Origin: a virus
Reading direction: 5' to 3' (one strand)
IMG/VR virus record: IMGVR_UViG_3300025418_000011
DNA length: 64,000 nucleotides
The notes under the pieces were generated by a model that worked only from the letters and a program-made list of their open reading frames with translations, searched no databases and was not told the DNA's origin. Below are positions 6,833 to 21,630 of this stretch, piece after piece (position 1 is the first letter of the stretch; the number at the start of each line of letters is the position of its first letter). Position numbers and translations under genes: made by a program.

Positions 6833-7543
6833 GTGGGTATAATAAGCAGTATGAACCCAGAAAATCAGCATATTGCATATTATATAAATTCATCGGCAGG
6901 TAAAAGCATACCATTACCCCTGGAGAGCATAGATGGATCTATAGATTGCAAAAAGTCTATAATCAGGTGCAGGAAAAATTCACCGCTGCAGGAGTATGTT
7001 TCACCCCTAGGTTATAGGGGTTTTCCTGGTGTACCTTATGAGCAAGGAGTTCCAAACCCTGATACATATTATCAGGGAGAGGATATCGTATTAGATAGTA
7101 TGCTTGTTTATCTTGGGGAAATGGTAGACCACAATAAATACACAATTTCTGTAGTAGTTAAGCCTGATCCTCACTCTTTAACTCCCACATGGGTAGGTAG
7201 TATTGATAATGGAATTTATTCTACAGATAGAGTGGGGTTCTACCAGATCTGGATACCGTCAGCAACCACACAGAATCTTTTTGCTGGTTCGTACTATTTA
7301 GACGTTATTCTTAAAGAACACGTCGGTAAAGGTGCTGGCGTTAAAGACCGCACCATGTTCTTGTTAACATATATTTTTAACGTAGAGTATAGCGCAGGTA
7401 GCAAACATCCAGAAAACTCGTCTAACTCTGGCGGTTTGCCTAATAGAGGAGAGCTAGAGAACACCTGGCCACCTGCGGCTGATATAATCGGGACATCAAC
7501 AAACCACAACACATACACAGCTCCTAGTCAGTACCCCCTTTAA
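6833..7543 (+). CDS. Hypothetical, probably structural beta-sandwich protein
   Basis: 236-aa ORF (ATG alternative at 6851); ends the + strand structural block. Confidence 0.5.
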   Translation: MGIISSMNPENQHIAYYINSSAGKSIPLPLESIDGSIDCKKSIIRCRKNSPLQEYVSPLGYRGFPGVPYEQGVPNPDTYYQGEDIVLDSMLVYLGEMVDHNKYTISVVVKPDPHSLTPTWVGSIDNGIYSTDRVGFYQIWIPSATTQNLFAGSYYLDVILKEHVGKGAGVKDRTMFLLTYIFNVEYSAGSKHPENSSNSGGLPNRGELENTWPPAADIIGTSTNHNTYTAPSQYPL

Positions 7544-8041: not shown

Positions 8042-8306
8042 TAAACTTATAGAGGAAAATAAAAATCTTAAAACTAGGCTTGATATACACGAGAATATTG
8101 CGGTACAACTAACGAATACGATAGGCGAACTCACCCAGGCTCTCGAACAAGCAAAGGCTAAAATAGAGGTACTAGAGAGTGATACGAAGATCGTTAAAAT
8201 TCAAAATAGTGACGACACTTACGTTTCGGTGGACGACATTTTTTGTTTAAGAAAAAAAGACAAAAAAGAAATAGCAAGATTAAACCAATTACTTAACGGA
8301 GTATGA
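8022..8306 (+). CDS. Hypothetical coiled-coil protein
   Basis: 94 aa with heptad-like charged helix. Confidence 0.55.
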   Translation: MSHEIVDKLIEENKNLKTRLDIHENIAVQLTNTIGELTQALEQAKAKIEVLESDTKIVKIQNSDDTYVSVDDIFCLRKKDKKEIARLNQLLNGV

Positions 8307-8404
8307 CCAGAAAAAAAGAAGACCTTCTCTGCCTAGTGGCTACATCATTTGTTCTCCTGATTATTTCAGGATTAGCAATTAATTCACTGACAGGAAATAA
8401 ATAA
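8303..8404 (+). CDS. Small single-TM protein (33 aa, MTRKKEDLLCLVATSFVLLIISGLAINSLTGNK)
   Basis: Manual translation; ATGA overlap with upstream stop; basic N-terminus then hydrophobic stretch. Confidence 0.4.
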   Translation: MTRKKEDLLCLVATSFVLLIISGLAINSLTGNK

Positions 8405-8443
8405 CCCCCCCATAATATAGCTTAACTTTTCAGGTATAATAAA

Positions 8444-8471
8444 TTGATAACAAGATTTGTTAGGCTATATT
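8444..8471 (+). promoter_or_regulatory. Sigma70-like promoter for the ncRNA island
   Basis: TTGATA-N16-TATATT; predicted start about 8478-8481 matches the 5' end of hairpin RNA A. A 13-bp inverted repeat (8414-8426 / 8459-8471) overlaps the -10. Confidence 0.45.
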
Positions 8472-8480
8472 TTTTAGTTT

Positions 8481-8608
8481 ATAGATTCGGATCTGTGTGT
8501 CCGCTAATTAGCTAAAGGTCCACGGCTGATATTGTGTGTACAATGGCGCTCTGCTCGGCCGAGCACCGCATAGAGACACATAGCAAACGGGCACACAGAT
8601 CCATCTAT
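8481..8608 (+). ncRNA. Candidate rod-shaped ncRNA A (unassigned, possibly 6S-like)
   Basis: GGATCTGTGTGTCCG (8489-8503) pairs with CGGGCACACAGATCC (8588-8602), 15 bp with one G-U; ATAGAT/ATCTAT outer pair; apical TGCTC-GGCC-GAGCA; no ORF. Confidence 0.6.
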
Positions 8609-8622
8609 TTTTGTAATGCTAC

Positions 8623-9015
8623 TTGCGATTAGTCTGGACTATAACCAGAGTCGTAAACCGTCTCAAGTCGGGAAGAGGTGGAATCATGGCCGCCTGAAAA
8701 GCAGAGAGCAAAAAATGGCGCAGCAAGGAATAAACTGACGAGTTTATTGAAAGGGTTTCCAACTTATTGGTGGAAACTGGTGTGGCACAACCCCCACACT
8801 AAATGACAATCTCACGGATACTGCAACCACCGTGAACAAATCATTCGCCTCACCACGAGGTTTGCAGACATCGTGGTAGGAACGCGCCTAAACCTTTTAA
8901 AATAATTCTGTGAGTAGAGTATGGGTAATTCCCATAACACGCTCTGTAAAGATAAACAACCTAATGCTGGGTGTTATTTTTACAGATCACGGTGATGATC
9001 ACACAGAGTTATTTT
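8623..9015 (+). ncRNA. Candidate large multi-junction ncRNA B (unassigned)
   Basis: About 390 nt ORF-free and relatively GC-rich; at least 10 helices traced by hand, with G-U wobbles consistent with the + strand. Confidence 0.6.
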
Positions 9016-9053
9016 TTAACCCCTGAAACCAAACAACCAACCAAAACCAAAAA

Positions 9054-9827
9054 GTGAAAAACGTACGCAGGATAGATTGGTCAGCACGTAAAGAAAAACG
9101 AGACAACGACATCTACCTAAACAAAGAGCTAAAGAAGCTGTTGCGTTATAGAGAAGATATCAACATACTCTCTCTGCCTGGTGAAAAATGGCTATGGGAG
9201 CGGCAGTTAATTCAAAATTTCCCTGAAAATAAGTTCAATATTGTTGGTGTTGAATCTGATCCTTATGTGAATGAATCTTCAAGAAATTTTCTAAAGCTCA
9301 ATCACAAGAATAAAAGAAACCAGATTGATCTACTAGACCAAAAAACATCATGGGAAGATGTAGTCACCAGGAAATTTAATTCCAGCTTGTTTGATAGCTC
9401 AACAGCTGAATTTGATATAATCTACGGTGATTTCATGGGTACCTTTAACAGAAATATAATAGAGTATATCTCACACATGCTAGAGGATAAAAAAATGATA
9501 AAGCCCTTGGGTAATATTATTTTTACATTCCTGCTTGGACGTGGATTGAGGGATATCAGAGAAGAAACCCTAGAGATAGGCAGAGCATCAAAATATTCAG
9601 ATTTACTTTATTTTGATGATGACATGCTGTGGAACAGATACAGCAGTAATACCAAATCTGATGAAGTTCATCCTTATGCTATCGGCATTATGGAAACTAT
9701 CTTACAGCTTGGTAAGAAATTCGGAAAAGTTCTACTCCCCTCAAAACCACATATATATTACAGTCCGGGAAGAGATGAAAACCATCTTGTTCCAGAGGGC
9801 AGCTTTTGCTTTACACTGATAAAGTAA
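9054..9827 (+). CDS. Class I SAM-dependent methyltransferase-like protein
   Basis: ILSLPG (motif I-like), IVGVESD (acidic end of beta2), FDIIYGDFMG (motif IV-like). Confidence 0.55.
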   Translation: MKNVRRIDWSARKEKRDNDIYLNKELKKLLRYREDINILSLPGEKWLWERQLIQNFPENKFNIVGVESDPYVNESSRNFLKLNHKNKRNQIDLLDQKTSWEDVVTRKFNSSLFDSSTAEFDIIYGDFMGTFNRNIIEYISHMLEDKKMIKPLGNIIFTFLLGRGLRDIREETLEIGRASKYSDLLYFDDDMLWNRYSSNTKSDEVHPYAIGIMETILQLGKKFGKVLLPSKPHIYYSPGRDENHLVPEGSFCFTLIK

Positions 9828-9850: not shown

Positions 9851-10285
9851 GGGGGCGTAATTGGAAATCGACTCCAGGAGTTGATATCAGCCTACATGCA
9901 GAGGATCTCAGTTGGCCTCTATAATCATCTGGGAAAAAAATAAAAGCAAACTCTAACGAGATGCTTGCTCCTAGCCTCGCTGAGGCGGATGCCATTCTTG
10001 CAAAGTATGGCTACGCTGACAGCGAGCTTCTCGCTGCCTAACCGCAGCGGCTTGAAGCCGCTAGTAGTAAAACGCTCTCTGGACGCCCGATGCCGGAGAG
10101 ATACAAAAGGGTACCTCAATTATCTTGTGAGGGTATAATTTAGATACGACTCAATTCGCGTTAAGTTGAAGATCCATCTGTATCCGCTCAGCGTACTGGT
10201 ACAGATGAAATAGGCTGAGCTAAGCATGTAAACGGTTGTTAGATATTTCTGGAACACACGGGTTCGAATCCCGTCGCCTCCACCA
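9851..10285 (+). ncRNA. ssrA: tmRNA; tag ANSNEMLAPSLAEADAILAKYGYADSELLAA* (9946-10041)
   Basis: 5' GGGGGCG pairs with CGCCTCC-A-CCA including G3-U70; T-arm GGGTTCGAATCCC; ATAAAA-GCA resume context; tag ends LLAA-stop. Confidence 0.95.
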
Positions 10286-13974: not shown

Positions 13975-14349
13975 ATGGGATTAGACATGTACGCATACGC
14001 CGTGGAAGATCATCCAATGGCAACAGCTCTCAGTATACCGAAGGGAGCAGAGGCGGTAGAAATTCAATATTGGAGAAAGCATCACGATCTGCACGGTTGG
14101 ATGCAGAAGCTCTATATCAGTAAAGGTGGTACAGGTCAATTCAACTGCACCCCAGTTCAATTAACAGAGGAAGATTTAAATAACCTTCATTGCGCTATAG
14201 AAAGTTCACATTTGCCGCAAACTAGAGGTTTTTTCTTTGGAAATAATCCTCCAGACGAAGACTCTAATTCAGAAGACCTTGCGTTTATAGAAAAAGCCAG
14301 GACCGCTATACGAAACGGTAAGAAGGTTTATTACGATTCTTGGTGGTAG
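13975..14349 (+). CDS. Conserved phage hypothetical protein (MGLDMY / YWRK / YYDSWW family)
   Basis: Signature MGLDMY...YWRKHHDLHGWM...YYDSWW. Confidence 0.8.
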   Translation: MGLDMYAYAVEDHPMATALSIPKGAEAVEIQYWRKHHDLHGWMQKLYISKGGTGQFNCTPVQLTEEDLNNLHCAIESSHLPQTRGFFFGNNPPDEDSNSEDLAFIEKARTAIRNGKKVYYDSWW

Positions 14350-16785: not shown

Positions 16786-16828
16786 ACCTCCCACGCCTCT
16801 CAACGATGCGCACCAAGGGAGGTTTTTT
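16786..16828 (+). terminator. Intrinsic terminator
   Basis: ACCTCCC/GGGAGGT stem followed by TTTTTT. Confidence 0.6.
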
Positions 16829-21432: not shown

Positions 21433-21630
21433 ATGAGTAAAACAGCAATTTATTATAAGGTCAGAGACAGGCTTAAACAATATGTATCTCCGGTAATAAA
21501 GCCGCTATTAGATAAATATTATACAGGCAGTAGCAAGTCTGCTCAGCGCAAGGATTTGGCGGATAGTTATGCCCAACAGGTGCAACCCCCTCCTCAGCCG
21601 CAGGCACCACCTAGGCCAAAGAAAGTATAA
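21433..21630 (+). CDS. Hypothetical basic protein
   Basis: 65-aa ORF. Confidence 0.55.
   Translation: MSKTAIYYKVRDRLKQYVSPVIKPLLDKYYTGSSKSAQRKDLADSYAQQVQPPPQPQAPPRPKKV

What the first reader, a model, noticed from the sequence alone, without database searches (positions are those of the whole stretch)
8623..9015. ncRNA B: ~390-nt RNA with a six-way and a four-way junction
Seen: GGCGC (8717-21) / GCGCC (8884-88) closes five arms: AATAAACT-GACG-AGTTTATT, GTTTCCA/TGGAAAC, GTGTGG/CCACAC, AATGA..TCACGG/CCGTGA..TCATT and ACCACGA/TCGTGGT. A second domain is closed by a 14-bp helix (8899-8912 / 9002-9015) with three inner hairpins. Two 5' hairpins lie at 8623-8656 and 8676-8695. It lacks RNase P, SRP and group I/II signatures, so it may be a new large ncRNA class.
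Basis: seen in the sequence. Interest (0 to 1): 0.7.

Follow-up and report, generated by a model that had tools for sequence, protein, structure and literature searches.

The report
Ribozyme-cut modular phage noncoding RNA
This gene-free stretch of an uncultured lake phage is a chain of a twister self-cutting ribozyme and two conserved folded RNA modules that match no known family. Sister phages carry an unrelated pistol ribozyme at exactly the same spot, which suggests the ribozyme's job is to cut this RNA free from its neighbours.

Summary
The minimum-free-energy (MFE) fold reproduces them (z = -6.2 on +, -2.7 on -), and five related phage genomes support most of them with compensatory changes.

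The element is not one 390-nt RNA of a new class. It is a chain of three parts:
- **Twister ribozyme, 8608-8714.** The Rfam score is below threshold (29.6 bits), but both core deviations are compensated inside pseudoknots T1 and T2. The predicted cut is U8614^A8615.
- **D1, 8717-8888.** A multi-arm junction: six-way here, five-way in relatives. Two invariant hexaloops, CUGCAA and UUGCAG, are perfectly complementary.
- **D2, 8899-9015.** A conserved three-way junction, not four-way.

All five relatives carry a bona fide Pistol ribozyme (60-61 bits) exactly where this phage has twister. Two more distant relatives carry GOLLD followed by Pistol in the same syntenic RNA island.

D1 and D2 match no Rfam family. 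They were found only in this small clade: six phage records and three metagenome contigs.

Best reading: a ribozyme-processed, stand-alone structured RNA of unknown function, possibly self-associating through the complementary loops. This scan has noted similar ribozyme-plus-ncRNA arrays in other phages.

The parts
8433..8471 (+). Promoter-like elements upstream of the RNA chain: GGTATAAT at 8433-8440, conserved in all six genomes, and TTGATA-N16-TATATT at 8444-8471.
   Evidence: Alignment. Consensus scan (10 of 12 matches; the scan as a whole is not above its shuffles).
8481..8608 (+). Upstream module 'ncRNA A', which the ribozyme would separate from D1-D2.
   Evidence: Conserved in the window, G014, G022 and G002 at about 75% identity. 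Absent from G003 and truncated in G001.
8608..8714 (+). Type-P1 twister self-cleaving ribozyme. Stems: P1 8608-13/8709-14, P2 8617-20/8700-03, P3 8623-8656, P4 8658-60/8669-71, P5 8676-81/8690-95. Pseudoknots: T1 pairs C8662 U8663 C8664 with G8706 A8707 G8708; T2 pairs G8667 U8668 with A8621 C8622.
   Evidence: RF03160 gives 29.6 bits, E 4.3e-4, full-length 1-68. The MFE of 8606-8716 alone reproduces P1-P5. T1 and T2 are defined in PMC5408937. It replaces Pistol at the orthologous site.
8614..8615 (+). Predicted scissile bond, U8614^A8615.
   Evidence: Position of the U-A step between P1 and P2 in the twister alignment and in PMC5408937. Cleavage was not tested.
8717..8888 (+). Module D1, a multi-arm junction closed by GGCGC/GCGCC. 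Arm 1 is 8729-8748, arm 3 is 8779-8800, arm 4 is 8802-8845 and arm 5 is 8848-8880.
   Evidence: Model R1 scores 94.6 bits in the window and 72-194 bits in the relatives.
8755..8777 (+). Arm 2 (GUUUCCA/UGGAAAC), an insertion found only in this phage.
   Evidence: Absent from all five relatives.
8821..8826 (+). Invariant loop CUGCAA at the tip of arm 4.
   Evidence: Invariant in all six. It is the perfect reverse complement of the 8862-8867 loop. A 6-nt complementary pair among unpaired positions arose in 1.4% of shuffles.
8862..8867 (+). Invariant loop UUGCAG at the tip of arm 5.
8899..9015 (+). Module D2, a three-way junction. Closing helix 8899-8912/9002-9015, hairpin 8920-8936, long hairpin 8944-8985. 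Invariant junction strands are GUGAGUAGAG 8910-8919, ACAC 8937-8940 and GGUGAUGAUCACAC 8991-9004.
   Evidence: Model R2 scores 110 bits here, and the next best hit in the whole window scores 15 bits.
9054..9827 (+). ORF of 257 aa with no family match. It lies between D2 and the tmRNA (9851-10285) and is an optional insert.
   Evidence: Present in G001 (57% identity). Absent in G003 and G014, where the tmRNA follows D2 within about 45-50 nt. No Pfam or PHROG hit.

Best explanation
The gene-free stretch 8433-9020 is one transcription unit that encodes a chain of RNA modules: ncRNA A, a twister ribozyme, D1 and D2. The twister (8608-8714) cuts its own backbone between U8614 and A8615. That releases ncRNA A with a 2',3'-cyclic phosphate and leaves a roughly 400-nt twister-D1-D2 RNA with a 5'-hydroxyl.

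In sister phages a Pistol ribozyme at the same site cuts 4 nt before D1's closing helix, so D1-D2 is freed with almost no leader. Which ribozyme class is used, and which side it stays attached to, does not matter. What is selected is a break between the upstream RNA and D1-D2.

D1-D2 is a stand-alone, compactly folded RNA whose fold is under selection. It sits in the same tmRNA/tRNA 'RNA island' where more distant relatives carry GOLLD plus Pistol.

What is shown: the fold, its conservation, the ribozyme swap and the synteny. What is inferred: co-transcription, actual cleavage, and function. My preferred guess at function is that D1-D2 acts as an RNA particle like other phage island RNAs, with the two invariant complementary hexaloops of D1 (CUGCAA and UUGCAG) forming a kissing contact.
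For: **Twister**
- The match to RF03160 is full-length, with E 4.3e-4.
- The only changes in the conserved L2, L4 and L1 nucleotides are GC to AC with GC to GU (T2) and CCC to CUC with GGG to GAG (T1). Both keep the pseudoknot pairs defined in PMC5408937.
- The MFE fold of the region alone gives P1-P5.

**Ribozyme swap**
- All five relatives have Pistol at 59.7-61.5 bits against a cut-off of 34.5, exactly between the end of ncRNA A or element X and the GGGCGC of D1.
- The window has no Pistol.

**D1 and D2 fold**
- Covariation is well above both controls.
- Each arm folds on its own in each lineage.
- The strand asymmetry favours +.

**Not a leader sequence**
- G003 and G014 lack the downstream ORF, and D2 is followed directly by the tmRNA.

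**Island context**
- G004 and G011 carry GOLLD (141-150 bits) ending 10-12 nt before Pistol.
- That pair lies between homologues of the same flanking genes as in the window.

**Loops**
- Both loops are invariant in six sequences while the stems beneath them vary.
- The chance of such a complementary pair is about 1.4%.

**Precedent**
- GOLLD and ROOL assemble through kissing loops (PMC12286853).
- Theta ribozymes mature phage tRNAs (PMC10879173).
Against: - The twister scores far below Rfam's gathering threshold (29.6 against 67.2 bits).
- It has one uncompensated change at a conserved position (UAAA to GAAA at 8696) and an A-G mismatch at the base of P4.
- The genome search with the same family did not return it.
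- No terminator-like site bounds the RNA, so its 3' end is unknown.
- Only four distinct lineages exist, so covariation statistics rest on few independent events.
- The loop complementarity shows no covariation because both loops are invariant. It could equally reflect protein binding or another partner.
- Nothing points directly to a function.
Confidence: 0.65

Rival explanations
1. One reading: 8623-9015 is one large ncRNA of a new class, with no embedded ribozyme and with all domains acting together.
For: The whole stretch folds very stably. D1 and D2 always occur together and in the same order in the six genomes.
Against: - The 5' hairpins are absent from all relatives, which have a Pistol ribozyme there instead.
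- Those hairpins fit twister P3 and P5, with compensated pseudoknots.
- A D2-like module occurs alone elsewhere.
Confidence: 0.08
2. The twister match is a chance resemblance. The RNA chain is processed, if at all, by host RNases, and the region 8610-8712 is just a variable spacer.
For: The score is less than half of Rfam's cut-off. The same family gives weak hits in 10 of 14 control genomes.
Against: - The match is full-length and keeps the conserved core nucleotides.
- Both deviations in pseudoknot nucleotides are compensated.
- It sits exactly where five relatives have a different self-cleaving ribozyme.
- The thermodynamic fold agrees with the twister model.
Confidence: 0.12
3. D1-D2 is a cis-regulatory leader (riboswitch or attenuator) for the downstream ORF 9054-9827 or for the tmRNA.
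For: It lies directly upstream of both, on the same strand. Multi-arm junctions with conserved junction nucleotides are typical of aptamers.
Against: - The ORF is absent in G003 and G014 although D1-D2 is kept.
- No terminator or anti-terminator was found.
- No riboswitch family matches.
- A ribozyme-defined 5' end fits a stable RNA product better.
Confidence: 0.07
4. D1-D2 works as a protein-bound RNA (scaffold, decoy or sponge for a phage or host protein). The complementary loops pair within one molecule to lock arms 4 and 5, and there is no RNA-only oligomer.
For: - Long, fully invariant single-stranded junction strands (GUGAGUAGAG, GGUGAUGAUCACAC, AGCAAGG, GGAAC) are typical of protein or tertiary contact sites.
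- Arms 4 and 5 are neighbours, separated by 2 nt.
Against: - No conserved partner gene was identified. The neighbouring small ORFs have no family.
- My own geometric inference, not computed: a fully paired 6-bp loop-loop helix between two adjacent arms of about 16 and 13 layers would need sharp bends.
Confidence: 0.3

Closest known systems
Twister self-cleaving ribozyme, type P1 (Rfam RF03160)
   Same: P1-P2-P4 core with optional P3 and P5, a U-A cleavage step, the conserved L1/L2/L4 nucleotides, and both pseudoknots T1 and T2 formable.
   Different: - The score is below Rfam's cut-off.
- T1 and T2 each carry a compensated A-U pair where the consensus has G-C.
- P3 and P5 are long.
- GAAA replaces UAAA at 8696.
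- It is attached to a large structured RNA in a phage RNA island.
Pistol self-cleaving ribozyme (Rfam RF02679)
   Same: It occupies the orthologous site in all five close relatives and performs the same act, a cut between the upstream RNA and D1.
   Different: - It is an unrelated fold.
- It cuts near its 3' end, so it stays on the upstream product, whereas twister stays on the D1-D2 product.
- The relatives have G-A instead of G-U at the cleavage step. This dinucleotide is only modestly conserved (PMC6154101).
GOLLD RNA (RF02032) and ROOL RNA, the ornate phage RNAs of tRNA islands
   Same: - Large, covariation-supported, multi-junction phage RNAs beside tmRNA and tRNA genes.
- In relatives G004 and G011, GOLLD with a Pistol ribozyme sits in the same syntenic island.
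- GOLLD and ROOL use kissing loops for assembly (PMC12286853).
   Different: - There is no sequence or structure match to either.
- D1-D2 is about 300 nt rather than about 580 nt (ROOL) or over 800 nt (GOLLD).
- GOLLD lies upstream of the pistol, whereas D1-D2 lies downstream.
- Oligomerisation of D1-D2 is only a hypothesis.
Theta (HDV-like) ribozymes next to phage tRNAs (PMC10879173)
   Same: A small self-cleaving ribozyme in a phage RNA gene cluster, placed so that its cut defines the end of a neighbouring structured RNA.
   Different: - The ribozyme class is different.
- The neighbour is a tRNA 3' end rather than the 5' end of an unclassified RNA.
RAGATH motifs, RNAs found near twister- and hammerhead-associated genes (Weinberg et al. 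2015; recalled from memory and from scan note e1-3825705)
   Same: Unclassified structured RNAs that travel with self-cleaving ribozymes in phage-related DNA.
   Different: No Rfam family of any kind, RAGATH families included, matched D1 or D2.
   Same: A phage RNA of 120-170 nt with a junction and two loops that are complementary to each other.
   Different: There is no homology, no packaging-motor context, and the loop pairing here is untested.

Membership tests
Twister type P1 (RF03160) | Nested stems P1, P2 and P4 (P3 and P5 optional) with internal loops L1 and L2 and terminal loop L4. | tested here: met
   The CM alignment covers model positions 1-68. The MFE fold of 8606-8716 alone gives P1-P5.
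Twister type P1 (RF03160) | Pseudoknots T1 (L4 with L1, three Watson-Crick pairs) and T2 (two L4 nucleotides with the conserved GC of L2). | tested here: met
   T1 pairs CUC 8662-64 with GAG 8706-08. T2 pairs GU 8667-68 with AC 8621-22. Both are compensated relative to the consensus. Definitions come from PMC5408937; the sequence is read.
Twister type P1 (RF03160) | Score at or above Rfam's gathering threshold (67.2 bits). | tested here: not met
   29.6 bits, E 4.3e-4 in a 1-kb search. The long P3 and P5 inserts cost score, and the pseudoknots are not scored by the model.
Twister type P1 (RF03160) | Site-specific self-cleavage at the U-A step, giving 2',3'-cyclic phosphate and 5'-OH ends. | not testable with these tools
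   Needs an in vitro transcription and cleavage assay.
Pistol (RF02679), in relatives only | Score above the gathering threshold, with the P1 loop / internal loop pseudoknot. | tested here: met
   59.7-61.5 bits against 34.5 in G001, G002, G003, G014 and G022. UCUAUG and CAUAGA are complementary in the alignment shown. The window itself has no Pistol.
GOLLD (RF02032) | Match to the conserved 3' domain. | tested here: not met
   No hit in 8200-9200 at E up to 10, nor anywhere in the window at gathering score. Relatives G004 and G011 do match, at 141-150 bits.
ROOL, OLE, raiA, RNase P, SRP, 6S, group I/II introns, hammerhead, hatchet, twister-sister, RAGATH families | Any covariance-model match. 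| tested here: not met
   cmscan of all 4227 Rfam families over 8200-9200 at E up to 10 returned only twister-P1 and noise hits.
New family D1-D2 (proposed here) | Conserved fold supported by compensatory changes in independent lineages. | tested here: met
   Only four distinct lineages are available.
New family D1-D2 (proposed here) | Distribution beyond one narrow clade. | tested here: not met
   - Conserved-motif scans of viral contigs returned only the five relatives plus chance matches.
- The metagenome scan returned three contigs that match G001 over the stretch compared.
- The bacterial genome scans returned one chance hit, rejected by the model.
- Models R1, R2 and R3 over 26 related records found only G004's D2-like copy in addition.

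The most novel reading that the evidence does not exclude
D1-D2 is a new self-assembling phage RNA. Ribozyme cleavage frees its 5' end. In the pistol-bearing relatives, the last two G's of the pistol P2 strand are also the first two pairs of D1's closing helix, so cutting would let D1 close. On this reading it fills the same, still unknown, role that GOLLD fills in related phages. The clean twister-for-pistol swap would then be direct natural evidence of what these ribozymes are for in phages: maturation of RNA-island particles.
Probability: 0.2. Interest if true: 0.8.

Novelty: new variant of a known kind. Interest (0 to 1): 0.6.

Why it matters
According to a 2019 review (PMC6765202), the biological role of twister, pistol and related ribozymes in bacteria and phages is still undetermined. 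Here two unrelated ribozyme classes occupy the same orthologous position, between the same conserved RNA modules, in sister phages. That is hard to explain except by selection for the cut itself. It also gives a defined substrate to test: ncRNA A | D1-D2.

Pistol sits directly after GOLLD in the same island of related phages. I found no paper in the searchable library that links the two. This extends the idea that self-cleaving ribozymes mature the large 'ornate' RNAs of phage tRNA/tmRNA islands.

D1-D2 is a compact candidate of about 300 nt, supported by covariation, for structural study. Its built-in pair of complementary loops may drive self-association.

Limits: the distribution is narrow, there are no expression data, and the function is unknown.

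Tried and rejected
**Homologue searches with no useful result**
- BLAST of the region against cultured phages found no match. The best terminase relative is only 30% identical.
- The flanking ORF 9054-9827 gave no relatives when used as bait in viral contigs.
- The 14-mer GGTGATGATCACAC was too unspecific for a scan.
- Ten extra hits to the 17-base D1 motif were chance matches in GC-rich coding DNA.
- The single hit to the D2 motif in bacterial genomes, a Nitrospiraceae MAG, is chance; model R2 finds nothing there.
- Models R1, R2 and R3 found nothing in the 20 more distant relatives except one D2-like copy in G004.

**Other twister or GOLLD hits in this genome**
- A second weak twister-like hit at window 21493-21570 (14 bits) appears to lie in coding sequence and is dismissed.
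- A weak GOLLD-like hit at G000:177443-177685 (15.8 bits) was not pursued.

**Structural ideas dropped**
- I considered that the D2 junction holds a K-turn (GUGA-GUA-GA opposite UGA-UCAC, consensus recalled from memory). The D2-like paralogues do not keep the required G-A dinucleotides, so I do not claim it.
- I considered a hammerhead-like reading of the UGAUGA box in D2. The order of the junction strands does not fit, and no Rfam hammerhead model matches.

**Circularisation**
- The phage has no RtcB and no second ribozyme was found at the 3' end, so I rejected circularisation of the product.

**Technical limits**
- The MAFFT and CM alignments of D1 arms 1-3 were poor. Those arms were therefore judged by folding each lineage separately and by a small alignment.

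Full report
**Setting.** The window is part of a 182-kb IMG/VR phage record. Its closest cultured relative has only 30% terminase identity. Positions 8307-9053 hold no ORF of 60 aa or more; four of 40-47 aa overlap the stretch. The stretch opens an 'RNA island' that also holds a tmRNA (9851-10285) and five tRNAs.

**Observation.** The energy is -128.2 kcal/mol against -95.5 +/- 5.3 for shuffles, z = -6.2. The opposite strand reaches only z = -2.7. So the structure is real, better than chance, and on the + strand.

**The 5' part is a twister ribozyme.**
- A permissive Rfam scan of 8200-9200 gave one notable hit. It is twister-P1, 8610-8712, 29.6 bits, E 4.3e-4, covering the full model, though below the 67.2-bit cut-off.
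- Read against the consensus, the conserved core differs at four places that pair with each other:
  - L2 GC becomes AC (8621-22), and its T2 partner GC in L4 becomes GU (8667-68).
  - L4 CCC becomes CUC (8662-64), and its T1 partner GGG in L1 becomes GAG (8706-08).
- The review PMC5408937 defines T2 as two bulged L4 nucleotides pairing with the conserved GC of L2. It defines T1 as three Watson-Crick pairs between L4 and L1. Both deviations are therefore compensatory.
- The MFE fold of 8606-8716 alone reproduces P1 (six pairs, 8608-13/8709-14), P2, P3, P4 and P5.
- The remaining imperfections are a G where the consensus has U at 8696 and an A-G mismatch at the base of P4.
- The predicted cut is U8614^A8615, six nucleotides after the end of the upstream module 'ncRNA A'.

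**Relatives.**
- DNA polymerase and terminase baits found 20 and 28 related loci in viral contigs, on about 30 distinct records.
- Five of them (G001, G002, G003, G014, G022) hold DNA homologous to this region at 67-76% identity. Their upstream genes are homologous to the window's.
- In all five, the segment corresponding to the twister is replaced by an unrelated sequence that is a bona fide Pistol ribozyme: 59.7-61.5 bits against a cut-off of 34.5.
- The boundaries are sharp. Homology runs to the end of ncRNA A and resumes at GGCGCAGCAAGG, the closing helix of the next domain.
- Pistol cuts at a G-A step 4 nt before that helix. The cleavage dinucleotide is only modestly conserved in the family (PMC6154101).
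- In the relatives the ribozyme therefore stays on the upstream product. In this phage it stays on the downstream product. The common outcome is a break between the upstream RNA and D1-D2.
- In G003, which lacks ncRNA A, the pistol would simply trim a leader.

**The core is two modules.**

*D1 (8717-8888)*
- It is closed by GGCGC/GCGCC.
- Arm 2 (8755-8777) exists only in this phage.
- Arms 1, 3, 4 and 5 fold independently in every lineage, with different stem sequences.
- On a model-guided alignment, the closing helix plus arms 4 and 5 show 10 of 28 pairs changed on both sides. Shuffles give 2.8 +/- 1.3 (0/500), and slid registers give 1-2.
- The loops of arms 4 and 5, CUGCAA (8821-26) and UUGCAG (8862-67), are invariant in all six sequences and are exact reverse complements. 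Such a pair among unpaired positions arose in 1.4% of shuffles.

*D2 (8899-9015)*
- It has 17 of 36 pairs changed on both sides, against 7.5 +/- 1.9 in shuffles (0/500).
- Its conserved form is a three-way junction with invariant junction strands.
- G014 and G003 carry an extra hairpin of about 60 nt between D1 and D2.
- The D2 model also matches, at 33-38 bits, an element lying between ncRNA A and the pistol in G001, G002 and G022. It matches one element in G004 more weakly. All have the same three-way architecture. D2 is therefore a separable module with paralogues.

**Distribution.**
- Fixed-pattern scans for the most conserved D1 and D2 motifs found only the five relatives in viral contigs.
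- They found three metagenome contigs that match G001 over the compared stretch.
- They found nothing real in about 186,000 bacterial and archaeal genomes.
- Covariance models found no further copies in 20 more distant relatives.
- No Rfam family matches D1 or D2.

**Island context.**
- Two more distant relatives, G004 and G011, carry GOLLD (141 and 150 bits) ending 10-12 nt before a Pistol ribozyme.
- tblastn shows that this pair lies in the same island as in the window, between homologues of window ORFs 6833-7543 and 13975-14349. In G011 it sits together with a tmRNA and a tRNA.
- The island is thus a variable cargo site for large RNAs, each accompanied by a self-cleaving ribozyme.
- The searchable library holds no paper linking GOLLD with pistol.
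- Notes from this scan on other genomes report comparable arrangements: pistol before GOLLD, modules ending in a twister, and hammerhead-released RNAs. The kind of arrangement is therefore not unique to this phage.

**Mechanism.**
- Shown: the fold, its conservation, the ribozyme swap and the synteny.
- Inferred: that the modules are co-transcribed from the conserved promoter-like GGTATAAT / TTGATA-N16-TATATT; that the twister is active; and that D1-D2 is a stable product.
- A cis-regulatory role is unlikely, because the downstream ORF is missing in G003 and G014 while D1-D2 is kept.
- For function I can only reason by analogy. GOLLD and ROOL, which live in the same kind of island, are RNA-only cages held together partly by kissing loops (PMC12286853). 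D1's pair of invariant complementary hexaloops could mediate such contacts between molecules, or could lock arms 4 and 5 within one molecule.
- No RtcB is encoded and no second ribozyme was found, so circularisation is unlikely.

**Verdict.** The element is a composite: a divergent twister ribozyme (a known class) fused to two conserved modules of a new, narrowly distributed RNA family. The most informative result is the orthologous twister-for-pistol replacement, together with GOLLD-pistol in the same island of related phages. Both point to RNA-module maturation as the job of these ribozymes in phages.

Noticed in passing
L201:1087-1568 (G004) and L202:1084-1568 (G011): GOLLD RNA (141 and 150 bits) ends 10-12 nt before a Pistol ribozyme (47 and 41 bits). 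The pair lies in the syntenic RNA island of two more distant relatives. No paper in the searchable library links the two.
   Followed up: partly
L054:1253-1361, L052:1392-1497 (-), L055:1400-1505 (-): Element X lies between ncRNA A and the pistol in G001, G022 and G002. It is a D2-like three-way-junction paralogue (33-38 bits to the D2 model), with the same hairpin loop GGAGAUC/GGAGAAC.
   Followed up: partly
L216:1501-1619 (G004:82422-82540): A further D2-like module (19.8 bits to R2; 41.6 bits to R3, which was trained with it) sits at the far end of G004's RNA island.
   Followed up: partly
window 8481-8608: The upstream module 'ncRNA A' is conserved at about 75% identity in G014, G022 and G002. 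It is absent from G003 and reduced to its last ~13 nt in G001, so it is dispensable for D1-D2. No Rfam match.
   Followed up: partly
L051:1703-1716 and equivalents: The last two G's of the pistol P2 3' strand (UUGG) are also the first two pairs of D1's closing helix (GGGCGC/GCGCCC). Ribozyme fold and D1 closure are therefore mutually exclusive until the P2 pairing is released.
   Followed up: no
L051:1864-1927 and L053:1603-1667: A hairpin of about 60 nt is inserted between D1 and D2 in G014 and G003 only.
   Followed up: no
window 9054-9827: A 257-aa ORF with no Pfam or PHROG match lies between D2 and the tmRNA. It is present in G001 (its flank aligns in G002 and G022) but absent in G003 and G014, where the tmRNA follows D2 within about 45-50 nt.
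   Followed up: partly
window 16787-16823: An abiF RNA motif (RF03085, 50 bits, above its cut-off) lies downstream of the tRNA cluster.
   Followed up: no
window 21493-21570: A weak twister-P1-like hit (14 bits) appears to lie in a small coding region. It is most likely chance.
   Followed up: partly
G000:C1:177443-177685 (outside the window): A weak GOLLD-like match (15.8 bits, E 0.005) elsewhere in the same phage genome.
   Followed up: no
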